In this document: positions 11,421 through 64,000 of the stretch, piece after piece
Layout of the letters: the number at the start of each line of letters is the position of its first letter
Numbering within the stretch: position 1 is the stretch's first letter
Program-made: the position numbers and the translations under genes
Assembly: GCA_947502765.1 (NCBI GenBank)
Contig: CANNBA010000010.1
Coordinates: forward strand, 1,477 to 65,476
Source: Flavobacteriales bacterium
GTDB lineage: Bacteria > Bacteroidota > Bacteroidia > Flavobacteriales > BACL11
Reading direction: 5' to 3'
Length of the DNA: 64,000 bases
Notes under the pieces: generated by a model
The model's input: only the letters and a program-made list of their open reading frames with translations
Told to the model about the DNA's origin: nothing
The model's database searches: none

Positions 11421-11429
11421 TTAAATTTG

Positions 11430-11511
11430 TGCGGGTGAAGGGACTCGAACCCCCACGCCTTACGGCACTAGATCCTAAGTCTAGCACGTCTACCAATTCC
11501 GCCACACCCGC
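11430..11511 (-). tRNA. tRNA-Leu (anticodon UAG), long variable arm
   Basis: The reverse complement is GCGGGTGTGGCGGAATTGGTAGACGTGCTAGACTTAGGATCTAGTGCCGTAAGGCGTGGGGGTTCGAGTCCCTTCACCCGCA. It folds with acceptor GCGGGTG/CACCCGC, anticodon stem CTAGA/TCTAG, loop CTTAGGA and T-loop TTCGAGT. Confidence 0.9.
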
Positions 11512-56334: not shown

Positions 56335-56826
56335 TCATGCCCAGCCCTCTCTATCTAACGACCTATATTGAATGGCTTCTGCCAGGTGTTCAGTAGTTAT
56401 TTTTTCTGATTTTTCTAAGTCGGCAATAGTTCGTGAAACTTTTAATATTCTATCATATGCTCTTGCTGATAAATTGAGTTTATCCATTGCTATTTTTAGC
56501 ATTCTTTGACTTTTTTCATCTAATCCGCAAAACTCTTGCAACTGCTTAGTACTCATTTGAGCGTTAGCATGTACTCCTTTAATTTTTTGATACCTCTCTT
56601 CCTGTATAATCCTAGCGCTAATTACTCTTTCTCTAATAGCTGCGCTACACTCTCCTTTTTTCTTGGCTGCCAATTCATCAAAACTCACGGGAGTAACCTC
56701 AACATGCAAATCAATCCTGTCCAAAAGGGGTCCAGATTTTTTATTCAAGTATTTTTGCACCATTCCAGGAGGGCATAAGCAGTCTTTATCAGGATGGTTG
56801 TAATAACCACAGGGACAAGTAACTAT
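56335..56826 (-). pseudogene. comM: C-terminal ~160-codon fragment of comM/yifB (Mg-chelatase-like AAA+ competence protein)
   Basis: CPCGYYNHPDKDCLCPPGMVQKYLNKKSGPLLDRIDLHVEV...ARAYDRILKVSRTIADLEKSEKITTEHLAEAIQYRSLD is the conserved ComM/YifB C-terminal module. In the family as I recall it, this module starts after roughly residue 340 of a protein of about 500 aa. The upstream 30 codons of the track ORF (MYLIIFIRLNKRL...) look unrelated, and no AAA+ ATPase part follows. Confidence 0.75.
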
Positions 56827-56872
56827 CTTTATAAATACCTCTAAATTAATTAGTTGATAAATAATTAAATAT

Positions 56873-56893
56873 TTTAGTCGTTTGTTTAGTCGT
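56873..56893 (+). repeat. two direct copies of TTTAGTCGT, 12-nt period, next to the comM breakpoint
   Basis: TTTAGTCGT occurs at 56873-56881 and 56885-56893. An inverted partial copy (GACTAAAA, reverse complement TTTTAGTC) lies at 57076-57083. Confidence 0.5.
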
Positions 56894-57120
56894 ATGAATA
56901 TGATTAAATACATCTTATCATGAAACTACAAAATCAAAATAGACTTAAAAAATGTAAAAGAGATAAGTTATTATTCTTTTTCAAGAATTGTATTAAAAGT
57001 ACTCCGTTGTATATACTCCCATAAAAAATCCACCTTCACAAAAAACAAATTTGAAAATAAATATATAAGAGTATGGACTAAAACATTTCGTTCCAGTTCA
57101 ATAAAAAAACTTACTCTAAT

Positions 57121-57408
57121 ATGAATAAGAAAAAACACATTCAAACAAACTTTTTCAGGTTTCTACTTGAAAAGTATTCAAATGACCACAACACTCAAAC
57201 TGACATTGAATTTGATGATGAGGTAGAAAACCCTGACGAGGAGACCAATGATGAATTACCAAAACGACTTAAACGAATGGTAGAAATTGAAGATGAGGAC
57301 CCTGAAAGAACCGAAGATGATGATGTCATAGACGAACTTGTCAAAGAATACAAAAAAATAAAAAAACAATATGAAAATCGTAGGATACCTGTCAGAAGAA
57401 AACGATAA
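57121..57408 (+). CDS. hypothetical highly charged small protein
   Basis: 95 aa with an acidic core (DDEVENPDEETNDE, EDEDPERTEDDD) and a basic tail. No family was recognised. Confidence 0.3.
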   Translation: MNKKKHIQTNFFRFLLEKYSNDHNTQTDIEFDDEVENPDEETNDELPKRLKRMVEIEDEDPERTEDDDVIDELVKEYKKIKKQYENRRIPVRRKR

Positions 57409-57628
57409 ACTTTATGATTTTGATACCCTAAGAAGACTTATAGGGTCCTCAAAATCAAAGTTACATCGTGACCTTCACAAACTTCAAAATCGTGAATTTG
57501 TGAAGTATAAAAACCAATTTCTTTATACAGAAAGAACAATGTTTGAGATAATGGAGAAAGTTCTGTTTGAGAGATTGGATAAAATTCAACATGAACATTA
57601 TGAACTTTCAAATGATAAGAAACATTGA
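57371..57628 (+). CDS. hypothetical small protein, possible winged-helix/HTH DNA-binding
   Basis: 85 aa. LYDFDTLRRLIGSSKSKLHRDLHKLQNREFVKYKNQFLY has the spacing of an HTH followed by a wing. It overlaps the upstream ORF by 38 nt in the +1 frame. Confidence 0.3.
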   Translation: MKIVGYLSEENDKLYDFDTLRRLIGSSKSKLHRDLHKLQNREFVKYKNQFLYTERTMFEIMEKVLFERLDKIQHEHYELSNDKKH

Positions 57629-57749
57629 AGACAGAATTTCCAAGAATAGAAAGAAATTAAATGAAGAAACGGATAATAAAAAGAAACAAATATTGAGGTT
57701 GAAAATACAGATTGATGAGATTAAAGTAAAACTTGAAAGATTGAAGTAA
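57567..57749 (+). CDS. hypothetical coiled-coil peptide
   Basis: 60 aa, or about 45 aa from the ATG at 57612. It has a heptad-like KKQILRLKIQIDEIKVKLERLK and again lies in the next +1 frame. Confidence 0.2.
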   Translation: MRDWIKFNMNIMNFQMIRNIEDRISKNRKKLNEETDNKKKQILRLKIQIDEIKVKLERLK

Positions 57750-57870
57750 TAAATTGAGAGTTCAAGTCTCTCCAAATAAAACTTGATATGAAAAACCCTT
57801 ACCAATATTGATAATCTGTAATCCTTAAATAATAAGGGTTAGTTGTTACTATATATAAAATCCAGTTAAT

Positions 57871-58452
57871 ATGACCATTAAAGAAACCTACCTAAGAAAG
57901 GTAAATAACCTCATCAAAGAACCTTACATTTATATATGTATCAAACCAATAAGAGGAATGAAATCACTGAACCAATTCAGGTTTTTAATTAAGAAAATGT
58001 TCAGAGAGGTTTCTAAACTCTATGGTGTGTATGAACCTCACTTACACCTAAAATATATTTCAGTAATTGAAATCAACAAATCCATTATTCTGGGAGATAA
58101 CTTATTTATGGGTAAGTTTTCTAAAACATCTAAATCTATTAATAGAAATGGTAGTGTTTCCACCAACTATTTCGATGTTACAGATAACATTGATGAATTA
58201 GGTTTTCACACACACATATTTCTACAAAAGAGATTTCATAACAATGAAATTTCTCATACTTTATTGAAACAATATATCTCCAATTGTTTTGACAAAGTGG
58301 GTATTGAAATAAATTATTATGAAAAGACAGATGAGGTTTATTCAATGAATAATTTTATCCATTATCATACAAAACAACTTCACTATCTGAATTCAGACTT
58401 TGTAATTTACAACACAACAAAATCGTTAATCCCCATAAACATTGAACAATAG
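57871..58452 (+). CDS. hypothetical protein with HUH-like motif (possible Rep/relaxase-type endonuclease)
   Basis: 193 aa. GFHTHIFLQ fits His-hydrophobic-His, and FIHYHTKQLHY about 55 aa downstream supplies candidate catalytic Tyr residues. This is motif-level evidence only. Confidence 0.4.
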   Translation: MTIKETYLRKVNNLIKEPYIYICIKPIRGMKSLNQFRFLIKKMFREVSKLYGVYEPHLHLKYISVIEINKSIILGDNLFMGKFSKTSKSINRNGSVSTNYFDVTDNIDELGFHTHIFLQKRFHNNEISHTLLKQYISNCFDKVGIEINYYEKTDEVYSMNNFIHYHTKQLHYLNSDFVIYNTTKSLIPINIEQ

Positions 58453-58486
58453 TCACATCAAGGATTTGATTGTTTAAATGTCGTTT

Positions 58487-58494
58487 TATTTTTG
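58487..58494 (+). promoter_or_regulatory. -7 promoter motif TAnnTTTG upstream of hsdM
   Basis: TATTTTTG lies 32 nt upstream of the ATG at 58527. TTG triplets at 58466-58472 could serve as the -33 element. Confidence 0.4.
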
Positions 58495-58526: not shown

Positions 58527-60242
58527 ATGTCTAAACACCAAGAACTTTCAAATTTTATATGGGGTATATGTGATGATGTATTGAGAGGACTTTTCAAACC
58601 TCACGAATACGGAGATGTAATACTTCCCTTTGTAGTATTAAGAAGATTAGATTGTGTTTTGGAACCACAAAAAGACAAAGTCTTAGAATTATATAACCAG
58701 TATAAAGACAAAGTCAATGACCCCACTCCAATTATATTGGATAAAATAGGAACTACTTTTTTTAATACTTCAAAGTATGACCTAAGAAGATTGAAACAAG
58801 ACCCACAAAATATTTACCTCAACTTTAATAATTACCTCAATGGATATGATGAGAATGTTAGAGAAATCATTGAGAATTTTCAATTAGAGAAACCCATTGA
58901 AAAATTAAACAAGAATAATCGTTTGTTTCTTTTGGTGGATCGGATGACTGAGGTTGATTTACACCCTGATAAAATAGATAATCGTTTAATGGGTCAAATC
59001 TATGAAGAGTTACTTCGTAGATTTTCTGAGATGTCTAATGAAACCAGTGGTGACCATTATACTCCGAGAGATGTTGTGAGACTTTTAGTTTCTCTATTGT
59101 TTTCGGGAGAAGAAGAAAACTTAAAAGGAAAAGGTGTTATTAGAAGTTTGTTTGACCCTTGTAGTGGAACTGGGGGACTTCTAACAATGGGTAAGGAATG
59201 GGTAAGAGAAAACATAAACCCTGATGTTGAATTTCTTCTATTTGGTCAAGAATTAAATCCTCAAACATATTCAATCTGTAAATCAGATATGATGTTGTTA
59301 GGTGAAAACTCAAACAACATCAAGGGACCAAGTTCGTCTCTATCTGATGATAGATTTCAAGGAATGAAGTTTGATTATTCTATAACAAATCCCCCATTTG
59401 GGGTGAGTTGGAAGTCTGAACAAGAATTCGTTGAAAACGAAAGTCAAAATCCTCATGGTAGATTTTTTGTCGGAACACCAAGGGTTTCCGATGGTTCATT
59501 ATTGTTCTTACAACACCTCATCTCAAAAATGGAAGATAAGGGAAGTAGAATAGGAATTGTGTTTAACGGGTCCCCATTATTTAGTGGTGATAGTGGTTCG
59601 GGAGAAAGTGAAATTAGAAAATGGATTATTGAAAACGATTGGTTGGAGTGTGTAGTTTCTTTACCTGACCAACTTTTCTTCAACACTGGTATTTCTACAT
59701 ATTTATGGATTGTAACTAACAAAAAGAAAAAGAATAGAAAAGGAAAGGTTCAATTAATAGATGGTAGTAGTTTTTATGTTCCTATGAAAAAGAGTTTAGG
59801 TTCAAAGAGAAAAATGATTTCAGAAAGTCAATTAACAGAACTGACCAATTCTTATAGTAAGTTTATAGAAAACAAACATTCAAAGATTTTTCCAAATCAG
59901 TATTTCGGATATACAAAAGTAACAATTGAACAACCTACAAAAGATGAAAAAGGAAAGGTTCTTAAAGATAAATCAGGAAATATAAAACCAAATAATTCTC
60001 TAAGAGATTACGAAAGAGTTCCATTGTTAGAGAATGTAGATGAGTATTTTGAAAGAGAAGTAAAACCTCATATTCCTGATAGTTGGATGGATAGAGATAA
60101 AGACAAGGTAGGATATGAAATCAATTTTTCGAAGTATTTCTATCAATATAAATCGTTGAGGTCTTTGAAAGAAATTACCCAAGAATTGATTAAAATAGAA
60201 AAAGAAAGTGAAGGTTTATTCAATCAAATTATTAATGAATAA
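58527..60242 (+). CDS. hsdM: type I restriction-modification system methyltransferase subunit
   Basis: Start at ATG 58527 (MSKHQELSNFIWGICDDVLRG, the HsdM N-terminal pattern). It has SAM motif I FDPCSGTGGLL and catalytic motif IV ITNPPFG. Confidence 0.9.
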   Translation: MSKHQELSNFIWGICDDVLRGLFKPHEYGDVILPFVVLRRLDCVLEPQKDKVLELYNQYKDKVNDPTPIILDKIGTTFFNTSKYDLRRLKQDPQNIYLNFNNYLNGYDENVREIIENFQLEKPIEKLNKNNRLFLLVDRMTEVDLHPDKIDNRLMGQIYEELLRRFSEMSNETSGDHYTPRDVVRLLVSLLFSGEEENLKGKGVIRSLFDPCSGTGGLLTMGKEWVRENINPDVEFLLFGQELNPQTYSICKSDMMLLGENSNNIKGPSSSLSDDRFQGMKFDYSITNPPFGVSWKSEQEFVENESQNPHGRFFVGTPRVSDGSLLFLQHLISKMEDKGSRIGIVFNGSPLFSGDSGSGESEIRKWIIENDWLECVVSLPDQLFFNTGISTYLWIVTNKKKKNRKGKVQLIDGSSFYVPMKKSLGSKRKMISESQLTELTNSYSKFIENKHSKIFPNQYFGYTKVTIEQPTKDEKGKVLKDKSGNIKPNNSLRDYERVPLLENVDEYFEREVKPHIPDSWMDRDKDKVGYEINFSKYFYQYKSLRSLKEITQELIKIEKESEGLFNQIINE

Positions 60243-60244
60243 TA

Positions 60245-61174
60245 ATGAAATTATACAACATAAAAGATAAAAAGTTACTTCCTGTTTTTTCTGATAATTT
60301 TAAGTTGGAAAAAGAAATTCAAGAATTAGTTGAAAACAATTTGAAAGAGTTGTTCAACCTTGAATTGGTAAAAACCGAATTCACTATTCGAAATTTCAGA
60401 ATAGACACATTGTGTTTTAATAAAGAAAACAAATCTTTTGAAATAATAGAATATAAAAGAGAAAGAAACTTTTCGGTAATAGACCAAGGTTACACATATC
60501 TTTCATTAATGTTAAATAATAAATCTGATTTCATTTTAGAGTATAATGAAAACAATAATGAGACATTGAAAAGAGATGATATTGATTGGACCCAGTCAAG
60601 AGTTAGGTTTATTTCACCTCACTTTACTGAATATCAAAAGAACTCAATTAATTTCAAAGATGTTCCTTTTGAACTATGGGAGATAAAAAAATACGATAAT
60701 AGTATGATTGGTTTAATTCAACATAAGACCTCATCAGAAGAAAGTATTTCAACAATTCAAACTGATACGGAGAATTTAGTTAGTTCGGTTACACGAGAAA
60801 TTAAAGTTTATTCCGAAGAATATCACTTCACTAAAAACAAGAAAAGAGATGAAAGGGTAATAGAACTATATAAATCAATAAAAGAACGAATAACAAATTT
60901 AGGTGACGATATTGATATTATTCCAAGAAAGGAATACGTTGGATTTAGAAGAAAAAGACCTTTCACTGATATAGTGTTTTATACTGAACATCTCCGAATT
61001 TTGATTAATATGAAGAAAGGTGAATTAGATGACCCTAAACATATTTGTAAAGATATGAGTGTTCAGGGACACTGGGGAAATGGAGATTATGAAATAAGAT
61101 TAACTCCCCAAGATGACCTTGAATATACAATGTTTCTCATTCACCAATCTTATAAAAAACAAGATAAAGTATGA
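60245..61174 (+). CDS. hypothetical protein: N-terminal PD-(D/E)XK-like nuclease motif plus C-terminal DUF5655-like region
   Basis: 309 aa. The order E24 ... RID54TL ... E69-Y-K71 (FEIIEYK) fits the D...(D/E)xK arrangement. The C-terminus YVGFRRKRPFTDIVFYTEHLRILI...GHWGNGDYEIRL...FLIHQSY resembles DUF5655. It lies 2 nt after the hsdM stop, and its own stop overlaps the hsdS start (ATGA). Confidence 0.6.
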   Translation: MKLYNIKDKKLLPVFSDNFKLEKEIQELVENNLKELFNLELVKTEFTIRNFRIDTLCFNKENKSFEIIEYKRERNFSVIDQGYTYLSLMLNNKSDFILEYNENNNETLKRDDIDWTQSRVRFISPHFTEYQKNSINFKDVPFELWEIKKYDNSMIGLIQHKTSSEESISTIQTDTENLVSSVTREIKVYSEEYHFTKNKKRDERVIELYKSIKERITNLGDDIDIIPRKEYVGFRRKRPFTDIVFYTEHLRILINMKKGELDDPKHICKDMSVQGHWGNGDYEIRLTPQDDLEYTMFLIHQSYKKQDKV

Positions 61175-62463
61175 GAAAGACCTATTCGAAATATAAGTCT
61201 TCGGGAGTTGAATGGATTGGTGAGATACCTGAAAATTGGGATTTTATTCGATTAAAACACGAATATAAAATCCAAAAAGGAAAAATACCTAAAATTATCT
61301 TTGAAGAACACAAAGAAGACCATGTTCCCTATCTATCAATGGATGTAATCAGAGGTTCTCAAACAATTGGTTATGTTCATAATGAAGATGGGGTTTATGT
61401 TTATAAAGGACAGGTCTTGATTTTATGGGACGGTTCTAATTCGGGAGAAATATTTAAGGTTGAAAAGGAAGGAATACTCTCTTCAACAATGGGTGTTTTA
61501 AACAAAATAGGAAACCAATTAAATGAAGATTTTTCATTTTATCAGTTAAAATCATTTGAACCTGAAATTAGAAATAACACCAATGGTATGGGAATTCCTC
61601 ATGTCGATGGTTCCTATGTTCGTAGTTTACCTCTATTTGTCCCCCCCCTTACCGAACAAGAACAGATTGTAAAATATTTAGACGAGAAGACTACACAGAT
61701 TGACAACCTAATATCTATAACAGAAGACAAAATAGACCTCTTAAAACAAAAGAGAACCTCACAGATTAATCAAGTTATAACAAAGGGTTTGAATAAAGAA
61801 GTTAAACTAAAAGATAGTGGGGTTGAATGGATTGGAAAAATACCTAATCATTGGGATAGAGTTTGTGTAAAAAGACTTGTATCAACAAAATTGTGTGATG
61901 GACCACATATTACCCCAAACTTTATTGACACTGGTGTTCCATTTATTTCTGTCGAAAGTATCAAAGATGATAAAATTGATTTTGATTTTTTAAGAGGATA
62001 TATTAGTAAGGAGGATGACATTGAATTTTCAAAAAAAACAAAACCTGAAAAAGATGATATTTTACTTGTTAAATCGGGTTCTACAACTGGTAAGGTTACA
62101 ATAGTTGAAACTGATATTGATTTTAATATATGGTCCCCTCTTTGTCTGATAAGAACAAAAAAAGAAAAAGTTTTACCAAGATTTGTTTTTTTATCTATGA
62201 AAAGTGATTTCTTTCAAATCACTATTCAACAATCTTGGAGTTTTGGAACTCAACCTAATATTGGAATGGGTGTTATTGAGAATTTATTCTTAGTAATTCC
62301 ACCAATTAAGGAACAGAAGGATATAATTAGTTTTATAGATAAAGAAAACAAAAAAATAGATAATTTGATTTCAATAGAAAAACGAAGAGTTGAAACATTA
62401 AAAGAATACAGACAAAGTTTGATTTCAGAAGTTATTACAGGTAAAATAAAAGTTATTGATTAA
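61171..62463 (+). CDS. hsdS: type I restriction-modification system specificity subunit (two TRDs)
   Basis: 430 aa with an internal duplication. SGVEWIGEIPENWD pairs with SGVEWIGKIPNHWD, and LTEQEQIVKYLDEKTTQIDNLIS pairs with IKEQKDIISFIDKENKKIDNLIS. Each half is a TRD followed by a conserved helix. Confidence 0.9.
   Translation: MRKTYSKYKSSGVEWIGEIPENWDFIRLKHEYKIQKGKIPKIIFEEHKEDHVPYLSMDVIRGSQTIGYVHNEDGVYVYKGQVLILWDGSNSGEIFKVEKEGILSSTMGVLNKIGNQLNEDFSFYQLKSFEPEIRNNTNGMGIPHVDGSYVRSLPLFVPPLTEQEQIVKYLDEKTTQIDNLISITEDKIDLLKQKRTSQINQVITKGLNKEVKLKDSGVEWIGKIPNHWDRVCVKRLVSTKLCDGPHITPNFIDTGVPFISVESIKDDKIDFDFLRGYISKEDDIEFSKKTKPEKDDILLVKSGSTTGKVTIVETDIDFNIWSPLCLIRTKKEKVLPRFVFLSMKSDFFQITIQQSWSFGTQPNIGMGVIENLFLVIPPIKEQKDIISFIDKENKKIDNLISIEKRRVETLKEYRQSLISEVITGKIKVID
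61641..61648 (+). repeat. C8 homopolymer inside hsdS, at the end of TRD1
   Basis: gtc ccc ccc ctt encodes V-P-P-L. This is the longest C/G run I noticed in this AT-rich window. Confidence 0.9.
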
Positions 62464-62466
62464 ATT

Positions 62467-63105
62467 ATGAATATTGATAAAGACTTATTGGAAAAGATGT
62501 TTCCAAATTCATCAAGTAAAAAAAACACCTCGTTAAAACTTCAAAAATATGAAGATTTGGTTGATTTTATTCACGACTATCATTCTGATAGAGTGAATTG
62601 GAAACTTCCTATTTCAATTATGGGATTGAACCTTGAACATATTCAAAAAAGAAATTGTTACATAACATTGATTTTTAATCCAACCAAAGAACAAGAACCA
62701 ATAATAGAGAAGATGAAAGATTTGTCTGAACACCAGGGTGGTCATTGGTTTGGTGTAAGAATTTTTACTTTCGAAATAGTAAAACAAATATTAAATGGTT
62801 TTGATAAAAATAAATGGGAAAAACTACCTATATCAATCCCAGTTATCAAATTGAGTGAATTGGAAAAGAAAGAGATTGAAACACTATTGGGAAAAGAGGG
62901 TGGTCCTCATTCAACGATAGAGTTTTTAATTAAAAATATTAATGAAGACAATAAAAATCTTATTGTATCTCAGATATATCACATTTTAGAAGTAAGAATG
63001 ACAAGTGTTAATAGTATTCATGAACTCTTATATTATAAGAATATCCGTATTGACTATGAATTAGTAAATAACAAAGAACATTATGACGATGAAAAGTCAA
63101 ATTAA
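62467..63105 (+). CDS. hypothetical protein (no recognisable motif) between hsdS and hsdR
   Basis: 212 aa. It starts 3 nt after the hsdS stop and ends 12 nt before the hsdR start. I saw no TM segment, P-loop or nuclease motif. Confidence 0.55.
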   Translation: MNIDKDLLEKMFPNSSSKKNTSLKLQKYEDLVDFIHDYHSDRVNWKLPISIMGLNLEHIQKRNCYITLIFNPTKEQEPIIEKMKDLSEHQGGHWFGVRIFTFEIVKQILNGFDKNKWEKLPISIPVIKLSELEKKEIETLLGKEGGPHSTIEFLIKNINEDNKNLIVSQIYHILEVRMTSVNSIHELLYYKNIRIDYELVNNKEHYDDEKSN

Positions 63106-63117
63106 ATAAATGAGAAA

Positions 63118-64000
63118 ATGAATTACACTGAAAAAAACTTAGAAGACCATATTGAAACAAACCTACATAAAGTTGGTTTCAAGTCTTTGTTATATACTGA
63201 GTATGACAGAGTGAATTGTGTAGTTTCCTCAGACCTAATTCAATTTATAAAAGAAACACAAATTGATGTTTATGAAAGATTATTTGAACAATATGGTTCA
63301 GATACTGACACCAAACTCATTTTAAGACTTAATAACGAGATTTCAAGTCGTGGGGTTATAGATGTTATCAGAAAAGGAATTAAAGACCGAGGTTGTCACT
63401 TTTCACTTGTTTATTTTGAACCAAAGAGTGGTCTTAATCCTGAACATCAAGAACTTTATCTAAAAAATAGAGTTACCCTAATTCGACAAGTTCATTATTC
63501 TTCTAAGAACCAAAACTCATTGGATATGGTTTTGTTCATCAATGGTCTTCCAATAATTACAATGGAATTGAAGAACCAACTGACTGGACAAACAATTTTA
63601 GATAGTGAAAAACAATACAGATACGATAGAGATCCAAATGAACCATTATTTCAATTCAAAAGGGTATTAGTTCATTTTTGTTGTGATAATGATAGAGTAT
63701 CTATGACAACAAGATTGATGGGTGGAAAAACAAAGTTTTTACCTTACAATAAAGGAATAGAAAATCCTATAAACCCAAGTGGTTTGAAGACATCTTATTT
63801 GTGGGAAGAGATACTTACAAAAGAAAGTTTATTAGATATACTTGAAAACTTTGTTCATGTTTCAGTTGAAACCGACAAAGACTTTGACCCTAAAATTGGT
63901 AAGGTAGTAGAAAAGAAAAAAGAACTCTTAGTTTTTCCAAGATACCACCAACTTGATGTAATCAGGAAATTAAGAATTGATGTTAAAACAAAAGGTGTTG
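63118..64000 (+). CDS. hsdR: type I restriction endonuclease subunit R, N-terminal ~294 codons (continues beyond window)
   Basis: Not in the track because it is open at the edge. Translation from ATG 63118 gives MNYTEKNLEDHIETNL...SLDMVLFINGLPIITMELKNQLTGQTI...FPRYHQLDVIRKL. This is the HsdR N-terminal PD-(D/E)XK nuclease region (D..ELK) leading into helicase motif Q. Confidence 0.85.
   Translation, partial: MNYTEKNLEDHIETNLHKVGFKSLLYTEYDRVNCVVSSDLIQFIKETQIDVYERLFEQYGSDTDTKLILRLNNEISSRGVIDVIRKGIKDRGCHFSLVYFEPKSGLNPEHQELYLKNRVTLIRQVHYSSKNQNSLDMVLFINGLPIITMELKNQLTGQTILDSEKQYRYDRDPNEPLFQFKRVLVHFCCDNDRVSMTTRLMGGKTKFLPYNKGIENPINPSGLKTSYLWEEILTKESLLDILENFVHVSVETDKDFDPKIGKVVEKKKELLVFPRYHQLDVIRKLRIDVKTKGV

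What the first reader, a model, noticed from the sequence alone, without database searches (positions are those of the whole stretch)
62467..63105. 212-aa orphan ORF in the PrrC-like slot between hsdS and hsdR
The ORF is tightly flanked (3 nt and 12 nt gaps), so it is expressed with the R-M genes. I found no P-loop, HEPN Rx4-6H motif, PD-(D/E)XK motif, HTH or TM segment by eye. In the E. coli prr locus, this same slot (after hsdS, before hsdR) holds PrrC, a latent toxin kept silent by the R-M complex and released when phage inhibits it. A novel protein in that slot is a reasonable candidate for a similar guard or retaliation function.
Basis: inference. Interest (0 to 1): 0.7.

Follow-up and report, generated by a model that had tools for sequence, protein, structure and literature searches.

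The report
Phage-shared small protein inside restriction operon
A real but very rare 212-residue gene sits between the specificity and nuclease genes of a mobile restriction-modification operon; its conserved 70-residue helical core also occurs as a stand-alone protein in huge phages, so it looks more like a small binding or modulating protein than a hidden PrrC-type toxin.

Summary
There is an ATG ORF at 62467-63105 (+), 212 aa, 3 nt after hsdS and 12 nt before hsdR. It has no P-loop, HEPN, PD-(D/E)XK, metal or TM motif. It is not a lone orphan. An exhaustive HMMER scan finds four other full-length clusters. A C-domain profile finds about 20 more clusters of 70-94 aa proteins. The protein has two domains: an alpha/beta N-domain (aa ~20-120) and a helical C-domain (aa ~128-205, invariant GGP turn). 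Four lineages carry a member exactly between hsdS and hsdR, two with the C-domain alone. Six of seven closely related operons (hsdR 65-85% identical) have no gene there; one has an unrelated ORF. A near-identical element (hsdR 97%) has swapped the hsdS-plus-slot block. Full-length members also occur without type I genes. The 70-aa forms lie in huge-phage-like contigs of Bacteroidota. No sequence or fold match exists to any known family. A PrrC-like latent nuclease is not supported. My best, low-to-moderate-confidence reading is a non-enzymatic modulator of the R-M complex, restriction-alleviation or anti-restriction-like. A hitchhiking phage or mobile-element gene is the main rival.

The parts
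62467..63105 (+). ORF212, the finding: a two-domain accessory protein in the slot between hsdS and hsdR
62467..62841 (+). N-domain (aa 1-125): alpha/beta with alpha-beta-beta-beta-alpha-beta order. Invariant residues are Q26, Y28, F34, D37, Y38, K84 and others. It is present only in the five full-length clusters and the decayed remnants.
   Evidence: Only weak, non-significant Foldseek hits to PD-(D/E)XK folds. No conserved catalytic motif.
62842..63105 (+). C-domain (aa 126-212): four-helix module, pLDDT around 90. This is the conserved core of the family, shared with 91-94 aa slot proteins and 70-75 aa phage proteins.
62896..62922 (+). Signature E144-G-G-P-H-S-T-I-E152. G145, G146, P147 and I151 are invariant in the 9-sequence C-domain alignment A4, which includes phage-type members. 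It forms the turn between helices 1 and 2 of the C-domain.
   Evidence: sequence read
61171..62463 (+). hsdS (430 aa, two target-recognition domains). Together with ORF212 it forms the block swapped between near-identical elements.
63118..64000 (+). hsdR 5' part, which runs off the window. The full gene is 985 aa on L001.
60245..61174 (+). ORF309, a second embedded gene: DUF5655 with a weak N-terminal NucS/HSDR_N_2-like match. It matches PADLOC candidate PDC-S18 (2.5e-123).
58527..60242 (+). hsdM (571 aa from the ATG at 58527; the mechanical ORF listing starts at TTG 58470)
58465..58494 (+). Bacteroidota-type promoter-like motif (TTTG...TAttTTTG) about 33 nt before the hsdM ATG. It is the only such + strand match in the operon. 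Suggestive only.
   Evidence: 11 matches in the window against 7.2 expected; no + strand terminator inside the operon
57121..58452 (+). Backbone genes of the integrative element (95, 85, ~52 and 193 aa). They are 96-100% identical in L012 and recognisable in L003, L009 and L016.
   Evidence: the 85-aa protein has a weak winged-helix match
56335..56913 (-). Truncated Mg-chelatase/ComM-like gene (192-aa C-terminal fragment) abutting the element, the probable insertion site
   Evidence: L012 shares the same junction at 93% DNA identity

Best explanation
Shown: ORF212 is a genuine, rare, optional accessory gene. It lies in the recombinationally swappable hsdS-side block of a type I R-M operon. That operon is carried by a small integrative element inserted in a comM-like gene of a low-GC Bacteroidota genome. 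The protein has two domains. Its conserved core is a ~70-aa four-helix module with an invariant GGP turn. Inferred: the operon looks like a single hsdM-to-hsdR transcript, so the protein would be made just before HsdR. Inferred: the module is a non-enzymatic protein-binding unit that docks on the type I complex (HsdR or the M2S methylase) and tunes restriction against modification. On the element, this would delay or soften restriction while a newly invaded host chromosome becomes methylated. In the huge phages that carry stand-alone copies, and in elements that carry it without R-M genes, the same module would act as an anti-restriction or restriction-alleviation factor. The functional analogy is to lambda Ral and to ArdB/KlcA; there is no homology to them. 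The optional N-domain would add a partner-binding or oligomerising function, not catalysis.
For: - **Real, constrained gene:** family alignment, dN/dS 0.23-0.38, AF2 pLDDT 82 with the C-domain around 90.
- **Positional fidelity:** four divergent lineages sit exactly between hsdS and hsdR, never at the equally variable hsdM-hsdS junction. Gaps are 0-22 nt, which fits translational coupling with hsdR.
- **Optional:** hsdS abuts hsdR in 6 of 7 operons with 65-85% identical hsdR, so it is not a core subunit.
- **The C-domain alone suffices in the slot:** L003 (94 aa) and L012/P0013 (91 aa).
- **No enzymatic hallmarks:** no motifs, TM segments or metal sites. No family or fold match. The only hint is a weak armadillo-repeat-like helical pattern.
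- **Stand-alone phage homologues:** 70-75 aa proteins occur in two different phage-like contexts. One has a baseplate wedge protein 60% identical to 635-642 kb phages. The other has an exonuclease, endonuclease VII and methyltransferases.
- **Full-length copies as first cargo gene** of sister elements that lack type I genes.
- **Precedent:** small phage or mobile-element proteins that modulate type I enzymes without catalysis include Ral (67 aa, acts through the HsdM N-domain), ArdB/KlcA and Stp. Entry of type I systems into naive hosts also needs restriction control (PMC12707154, read).
Against: - No direct evidence of binding to any Hsd subunit. No multimer modelling or experiment was possible.
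- The phage copies sit in conserved synteny and are well conserved (mean column identity 77%). That looks more like a stable phage gene than a fast-evolving anti-defence gene.
- A constitutively co-expressed restriction damper would weaken the defence it travels with.
- Members outside R-M operons (P0002/P0012, P0004) show the protein can work, or at least persist, without type I genes.
- The slot also accepts an unrelated 131-aa ORF in L016. Position alone may therefore reflect a permissive insertion point.
- Domain charge is inconsistent across members (C-domain pI 4.3-8.2). This gives no support for DNA mimicry.
Confidence: 0.33

Rival explanations
1. Hitchhiker. The gene is a phage- or mobile-element-derived 'moron' whose function has nothing to do with R-M, for example a small adaptor or regulator of some host or element process. 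It persists at the hsdS-hsdR junction because that junction tolerates insertions and guarantees expression.
For: Both operon junctions are variable and filled with assorted orphan ORFs in relatives. Examples are the 131-aa ORF in L016, the 138-141-aa ORFs in L016 and L020, and the 95- and 197-aa ORFs in L015. Family members occur without type I genes and in phage genomes next to baseplate or replication genes. ORF212 GC (27.2%) is nearer the phage loci (26%) than the host part of the window (33.5%).
Against: Four lineages that differ by 55-77% in sequence all keep precisely the same junction and never use the other variable junction. Purifying selection is maintained. The non-R-M copies still lie in defence-type cargo, next to a ResIII/DEAD helicase and DNA methyltransferases.
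Confidence: 0.3
2. ORF212 is a PrrC-like guard, a latent effector held silent by the R-M complex and released when a phage inhibits restriction. The N-domain would be the effector and the C-domain the tether to the complex.
For: It occupies the same slot as prrC (between hsdS and hsdR) (PrrC embedding in PMC12707154). Embedding in type I systems is an experimentally validated predictor of defence genes (bioRxiv 10.1101/2024.01.29.577857). The two-domain layout would allow a tether plus an effector. The N-domain topology and some weak Foldseek hits recall nuclease folds.
Against: There is no P-loop, HEPN or conserved acidic catalytic set; only D37 is invariant. There is no PADLOC, Pfam or PDB similarity. 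The supposed effector N-domain is absent from two slot lineages. The exhaustive scan and the collection scans found it in no other protein family. The conserved part is the 70-aa helical module that phages themselves encode.
Confidence: 0.15
3. ORF212 is a controller-like regulator. The C-domain would be a small DNA- or RNA-binding protein that sets hsdR expression, analogous to C proteins encoded just upstream of type II endonuclease genes.
For: It lies immediately upstream of, and is tightly coupled to, the R gene. It is a small helical domain. One member has a marginal FUR winged-helix match at E 0.085. C proteins and RptR set the precedent (PMC12255303).
Against: No HTH family is hit consistently across the 12 members scanned. 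There is no intergenic region, promoter-like motif or operator-like palindrome ahead of ORF212 or hsdR. Few basic residues are conserved and the pI ranges from 4.3 to 8.2. The helix 2 to helix 3 loop of about 6 residues is not a canonical HTH turn.
Confidence: 0.1
4. The ORF is non-functional: a decaying fragment or a chance ORF.
For: Truncated N-domain remnants of a relative do exist elsewhere (L005, L006).
Against: The window copy is full length and aligns end to end with homologues. dN/dS is below 0.4. The AF2 model is confident. There is no similarity to the flanking hsd genes.
Confidence: 0.03

Closest known systems
PrrC / RloC anticodon nucleases (R-M 'guardian' genes embedded in type I loci)
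   Same: The genomic position is the same: inside a type I operon, between hsdS and hsdR. Both are optional accessories carried with the R-M genes.
   Different: PrrC is a protein of about 400 aa with an ABC-type NTPase domain and a C-terminal nuclease. ORF212 is 212 aa with no NTPase or nuclease motif and no homology. Its conserved core is a 70-aa helical module that can fill the slot alone.
'Guilt-by-embedding' phage-defence candidates (PADLOC PDC sets; Payne et al. 2024 preprint)
   Same: It is an uncharacterised gene nested in a type I R-M system. The same operon also holds a catalogued candidate, PDC-S18 (ORF309).
   Different: ORF212 matches no PDC or other PADLOC model. Unlike most validated embedded systems, it has no recognisable effector domain.
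Small non-catalytic modulators of type I enzymes: lambda Ral (67 aa), Lar, ArdB/KlcA, T4 Stp
   Same: The size of the core module is similar. It is carried by phages and mobile elements, has no enzymatic motifs, and is not a strongly acidic DNA mimic. It plausibly acts by protein binding.
   Different: There is no sequence or fold similarity. None of those proteins is known to be encoded inside the R-M operon it modulates. Activity here is untested.
Controller (C) proteins of type II R-M systems and RptR of type I islands
   Same: They are small helical proteins encoded with R-M genes. C proteins also lie directly upstream of the endonuclease gene.
   Different: Those are HTH DNA binders with operators in their own promoters. 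ORF212 has no HTH signature, no promoter region of its own and no operator-like repeat.
DNA-mimic anti-restriction proteins (Ocr, ArdA)
   Same: They are carried by phages and mobile elements and target type I systems.
   Different: Those are strongly acidic along their whole length. The pI of this family's domains ranges from 4.3 to 9.8 with no consistent charge, and there is no homology.

Membership tests
PrrC/RloC anticodon nuclease | Gene embedded in a type I R-M locus between hsdS and hsdR | tested here: met
PrrC/RloC anticodon nuclease | N-terminal ABC-type NTPase domain with Walker A/B motifs | tested here: not met
   No [AG]x4GK[ST] in any full-length member. No ATPase hit in Pfam, NCBIfam or PADLOC.
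PrrC/RloC anticodon nuclease | C-terminal nuclease domain with conserved Arg/Glu/His catalytic residues (HEPN-like) | tested here: not met
   Rx4-6H occurs in only one member and is not conserved. The C-domain is a 4-helix module of about 70 aa.
PrrC/RloC anticodon nuclease | Latent toxicity unmasked by inhibition of the R-M enzyme | not testable with these tools
   Needs expression and phage-challenge experiments.
PADLOC embedded phage-defence candidates (PDC) | Match to a PDC profile | tested here: not met
   0 PADLOC families for ORF212 at E<=1. The neighbour ORF309 matches PDC-S18 at 2.5e-123.
PADLOC embedded phage-defence candidates (PDC) | Recurrent embedding in known defence systems | tested here: met
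   Four lineages lie in the slot between hsdS and hsdR.
PD-(D/E)XK nuclease | alpha-beta-beta-beta-alpha-beta core fold | tested here: inconclusive
   The secondary-structure order of the N-domain fits. Foldseek hits to TnsA, FAAP24 and the bunyavirus L endonuclease have E 0.16-0.9 and TM <= 0.24.
PD-(D/E)XK nuclease | Conserved D...(D/E)xK catalytic residues on strands 2 and 3 | tested here: not met
   The only invariant acidic residue in the N-domain is D37, in helix 1. There is no aligned (D/E)xK.
Controller (C) protein / HTH regulator | HTH DNA-binding fold recognisable by profile | tested here: not met
   No HTH family is shared among the 12 members. There is a single FUR match at E 0.085.
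Controller (C) protein / HTH regulator | Own promoter with palindromic operator (C-box) upstream | tested here: not met
   The gap to hsdS is 3 nt. There is no promoter-like motif or close palindrome.
Known anti-restriction / restriction-alleviation proteins (Ral, Lar, ArdA, ArdB/KlcA, Ocr) | Sequence or fold homology to one of these families | tested here: not met
   No Pfam or PHROG hit at E<=1-5 for any member. There are no significant PDB or BFVD matches.
Known anti-restriction / restriction-alleviation proteins (Ral, Lar, ArdA, ArdB/KlcA, Ocr) | Strong uniform negative charge (DNA mimicry; applies to Ocr and ArdA only) | tested here: not met
   C-domain pI is 4.3-8.2 and N-domain pI is 4.7-9.8 across members.
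Known anti-restriction / restriction-alleviation proteins (Ral, Lar, ArdA, ArdB/KlcA, Ocr) | Alleviates restriction or enhances modification by a type I enzyme | not testable with these tools
   Needs EOP, transformation and methylation assays.

The most novel reading that the evidence does not exclude
The ~70-aa GGP helical module is a previously unrecognised class of type I R-M modulator, used on both sides of the conflict. Huge Bacteroidota phages and some integrative elements would use it as a stand-alone anti-restriction or restriction-alleviation factor. Mobile type I R-M operons would have built it in between hsdS and hsdR, sometimes with an extra N-domain. There it would control their own nuclease during establishment in a new host, or act as a decoy or sensor for the phage version.
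Probability: 0.25. Interest if true: 0.75.

Novelty: new variant of a known kind. Interest (0 to 1): 0.5.

Why it matters
Genes nested in type I R-M operons have been a productive source of new defence functions. How mobile type I systems avoid killing a naive host is understood for only a few model enzymes: ClpXP proteolysis for types IA and IB, and assembly control for type IC. If a small operon-encoded module shared with phages modulates the enzyme, it would be a new, self-carried solution to that establishment problem. It would also be a new anti-restriction family in huge phages of Bacteroidota, whose defence biology is little explored. If the gene is only a hitchhiker, the locus still documents something useful. 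The hsdM-hsdS and hsdS-hsdR junctions of this operon family act as cassette sites that exchange orphan genes along with the specificity subunit.

Tried and rejected
- **Homologue and family searches that found nothing.**
  - The k-mer homologue search returned only the query itself.
  - Pfam, NCBIfam, PADLOC and PHROGs on the query and on every family member gave no consistent family.
  - Profile searches of PDB sequences, for the whole protein and for each domain, gave nothing. The C-domain showed only insignificant armadillo-repeat resemblance.
  - GTDB species genomes, IMG/VR, PLSDB plasmids and INPHARED phages contain no relative.
  - The syntenic stretch of the 642-kb phage LR756502.1 has no copy.
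- **Structure.**
  - The single-sequence AF2 model was useless (pLDDT 40).
  - Foldseek of the good model found no match at E<=0.001 in PDB or BFVD.
  - Domain-level fold searches were not possible because the structure jobs were exhausted.
- **Ideas tested and rejected.**
  - Degenerate fragment of hsdR, hsdS, hsdM or DUF5655: rejected.
  - The phage-side 84- and 198-aa neighbours being homologues of the element's 85- and 193-aa backbone genes: rejected.
  - The 91-aa slot form being clearly closer to the phage forms: not supported by identity (36-42% to everything). It does share a 6-residue insertion with them.
  - DNA mimicry: rejected on charge.
  - Internal promoter, terminator or operator near ORF212: none found.
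- **Minor.**

Full report
**1. The observation**

The window contains an ATG ORF at 62467-63105 (+) of 212 aa. It starts 3 nt after the stop of a 430-aa hsdS (61171-62463; Pfam Methylase_S 2.8e-28). It ends 12 nt before the ATG of hsdR (63118 onward; HSDR_N 7e-14). hsdR runs off the window but is an intact 985-aa gene on the longer metagenomic contig L001.

The operon order is hsdM (58527-60242), ORF309 (60245-61174), hsdS, ORF212, hsdR. ORF309 is a second embedded gene. It carries DUF5655 (1e-15) and matches the PADLOC candidate PDC-S18 at 2.5e-123.

- no Walker A motif;
- no conserved HEPN Rx4-6H;
- no conserved D...(D/E)xK;
- no Cys/His cluster;
- no hydrophobic segment (maximum KD 0.82).

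Pfam, NCBIfam and PADLOC give no hit for ORF212. The only entry is a FUR match at E 0.085.

**2. It is a real gene and belongs to a small family**

A k-mer-indexed search of 5.8 billion proteins returned only the query itself. An exhaustive phmmer scan of 1.84 billion cluster representatives found ten relatives. Three are full length: P0002 (48% identity), P0003 (40%) and P0004 (32%). A profile search added P0012.

The full-length proteins align end to end with 41 invariant columns. dN/dS is 0.23-0.38 for the pairs with DNA available, against 0.07 for hsdR.

AlphaFold2 with the 12-sequence alignment gives mean pLDDT 82. The model shows two domains:
- **N-domain (aa ~20-120):** alpha/beta, with the order alpha-beta-beta-beta-alpha-beta.
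- **C-domain (aa 131-189):** four helices, pLDDT around 90.

The signature of the C-domain is E144-G-G-P-x-S-x-I-E152, the turn between its first two helices.

A family HMM run against every six-frame ORF of all loci hits only family members at E<=10. ORF212 is therefore not a decayed piece of hsdR, hsdS, hsdM or ORF309.

**3. Where the family lives**

*Type I slot.* Four divergent lineages lie exactly between hsdS and hsdR:
- ORF212 itself (window, L001, L002);
- P0003, full length, in L007, whose flanks are an hsdS 3' end and hsdR;
- P0006, 94 aa, C-domain only, in L003;
- P0008 and P0013, 91 aa, C-domain only, in L012-L014 and a JGI contig.

Gaps to the neighbouring genes are 0-22 nt.

*Same element family, no type I genes.* P0002 and P0012 (206 aa; P0012 is called as 223 aa from an upstream start) follow the element's 175-aa backbone gene directly. 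Downstream, on the opposite strand, lie a ResIII/DEAD helicase and DNA methyltransferases. P0004 is not flanked by hsd genes. L005 and L006 hold truncated N-domain relics.

*Phage.* A C-domain-only profile (A4) retrieves about 20 clusters, mostly stand-alone proteins of 70-75 aa. One set (P0011, P0015) lies in conserved synteny after a baseplate-wedge gene. That gene matches phrog_219 at 1e-13 and is 60% identical over its full length to 635-642 kb 'uncultured phage' genomes, with weaker matches to the Lak megaphages. On the other side lie convergent DHFR, glycosyltransferase and MazG-like genes. Another set (P0026) precedes a conserved 115-aa gene and a 3'-5' exonuclease (phrog_25228, 1e-31), near endonuclease VII and Eco57I-type methyltransferases.

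There are no copies in INPHARED, IMG/VR, PLSDB or the GTDB species representatives.

**4. The slot is optional and part of a swappable block**

Seven genomes with hsdR 65-85% identical were recovered. All but one are titled as Bacteroidota MAGs, including Chitinophagaceae, Hydrotalea and Draconibacterium. None encodes a family member. In six of them hsdS abuts hsdR, and in L016 an unrelated 131-aa orphan fills the slot. The hsdM-hsdS junction is equally variable. It holds DUF5655, or a 138-141-aa ORF, or a 95-aa plus a 197-aa ORF.

L012 is nearly the same element as the window's. Backbone proteins are 96-100% identical, hsdM is 92% and hsdR is 97%, and it shares the same comM-like junction. 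Its central block is different, however. It has no DUF5655, a half-size hsdS at 33% identity, and a 91-aa slot protein.

DNA identity is 93% up to the hsdM stop. It resumes at 96% two nucleotides before the hsdR ATG. In between, only the conserved hsdS 3' end aligns. ORF212 therefore travels with hsdS in a recombination cassette bounded by the conserved hsdM and hsdR genes.

One Bacteroidota-type promoter-like motif precedes hsdM. No other + strand promoter motif or terminator lies inside the operon, and nothing operator-like lies in front of ORF212. This fits a single transcript. The promoter count is not significant window-wide, so this point is only suggestive.

**5. What it is not**

- **Not a PrrC/RloC-type nuclease.** It shares the position, but every molecular hallmark tested is absent. 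The putative effector N-domain is missing from two slot lineages.
- **Not a demonstrable PD-(D/E)XK nuclease.** The N-domain topology and a scatter of weak Foldseek hits (TnsA, FAAP24, bunyavirus L endonuclease; E 0.16-0.9, TM <= 0.24) recall that fold. The only invariant acidic residue is D37, in helix 1.
- **Not a recognisable HTH or C protein**.
- **Not a DNA mimic.** Domain pI ranges from 4.3 to 9.8 with no consistent sign.
- **Not matched to any known structure.** No PDB or BFVD structure matches at E<=0.001. Profile searches of PDB sequences give only an insignificant armadillo-repeat-like pattern for the C-domain.

**6. Most likely mechanism (inference)**

The part of the protein that is always present is a small helical module with no catalytic features. 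It keeps one precise position next to hsdR in four old lineages. It is dispensable for the enzyme. It also circulates as a stand-alone gene in phages and at the head of the cargo region of sister elements.

The most economical reading is a protein-binding modulator of the type I complex. There are precedents for small non-catalytic modulators (PMC12707154):
- lambda Ral (67 aa) speeds de novo methylation through the HsdM N-domain;
- ArdB/KlcA are anti-restriction proteins that are not DNA mimics;
- T4 Stp is a 26-residue inhibitor.

The same review stresses that type I systems entering a naive host need restriction to be held back. Types IA and IB use ClpXP proteolysis, and type IC uses assembly control. 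A mobile operon that encodes its own damper just upstream of hsdR would solve that problem. A phage would use the same module offensively.

I put this at about one in three. Several points count against it. No binding evidence exists. The phage copies are well conserved and syntenic, which is unlike typical anti-defence genes. A constitutive damper would cost defence.

The rivals are:
- an unrelated hitchhiker exploiting a permissive junction (about 0.3);
- a C-protein-like regulator (about 0.1);
- a non-functional ORF (about 0.03).

**7. Novelty and verdict**

The logic of 'a gene embedded in a type I operon may be a defence or accessory function' is established. It rests on PrrC and on the guilt-by-embedding study, which produced the PDC sets (bioRxiv 10.1101/2024.01.29.577857). 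This family is in none of the libraries searched and has no detectable fold relative. It differs from the validated embedded systems in lacking any effector domain and in having phage-encoded homologues. I class it as a new variant of a known kind.

The PrrC-like interpretation is only partly supported: position and R-M linkage yes, latent toxin no. Interest is moderate (0.5). It is a concrete, cheaply testable candidate for a new type I R-M modulator shared between huge phages and mobile R-M operons, but its function remains inferred.

Noticed in passing
window 60245-61174 (+): A second gene is embedded in the same operon, between hsdM and hsdS. It encodes a 309-aa DUF5655 protein with weak N-terminal NucS/HSDR_N_2 (PD-(D/E)XK-like) matches and hits PADLOC candidate PDC-S18 at 2.5e-123. 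It is present in most related operons (57-67% identity) but absent from the near-identical element L012.
   Followed up: partly
window 56335-56913 (-) and 56914-58452: A 192-aa C-terminal fragment of a Mg-chelatase/ComM-like gene abuts the element's small backbone genes (95, 85, ~52 and 193 aa). The whole R-M island therefore appears to be an integrative element inserted in a comM-like gene. L012 shares the same junction at 93% DNA identity. The other end and the integrase lie beyond the window. In L012 the far end holds a 196-aa and a 674-aa tyrosine recombinase.
   Followed up: partly
L016 9602-9997 (+); L016 7797-8213 and L020 7322-7747; L015 7739-8625: Related operons carry other orphan ORFs at the two junctions. 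L016 has an unrelated 131-aa ORF in the slot between hsdS and hsdR. L016 and L020 have a 138-141-aa ORF with weak HNH/zinc-finger hits next to DUF5655. L015 has a 95-aa plus a 197-aa ORF before hsdS. None has a family or PADLOC assignment.
   Followed up: partly
L015 5880-7270: In this MAG the hsdM gene is split (397 aa plus 153 aa) by about 1.4 kb that carries two reverse-strand ORFs. This is probably an insertion sequence that inactivates the methylase gene.
   Followed up: no
L012 3467-4171; JGI contig of P0013: The elements with the 91-aa slot protein have a half-size hsdS (234 aa, one target-recognition domain) instead of the usual two-domain S subunit of about 430 aa.
   Followed up: no
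L023 and L029 (phage-like contigs, 26-82 kb): The huge-phage-like contigs that carry the 71-aa homologue also encode unusual cargo for a phage. Precomputed Pfam calls list a NusA-like protein (in L023), DHFR, FolD (in L029), guanylate kinase, CorA (in L023), an OmpH-like protein and a MazG-like pyrophosphatase. GC is about 26%.
   Followed up: no
L005 2229-2612; L006 314-532: Truncated relics of the N-domain (127 aa and 72 aa, ending at the domain boundary) lie next to a large secreted repeat protein in two freshwater contigs. These are apparently the remains of a deleted element.
   Followed up: partly
window 58470 vs 58527: The mechanical ORF list starts hsdM at TTG 58470. Gene calls on the source contigs, and the conserved N-terminus (MSKHQELSNF...), place the start at ATG 58527. 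The promoter-like motif at 58465-58494 would lie inside the longer ORF.
   Followed up: yes
window 11429-11511 (-): A tRNA-Leu gene is the only Rfam or ARAGORN RNA gene in the 64-kb window. It is unrelated to the island.
   Followed up: no
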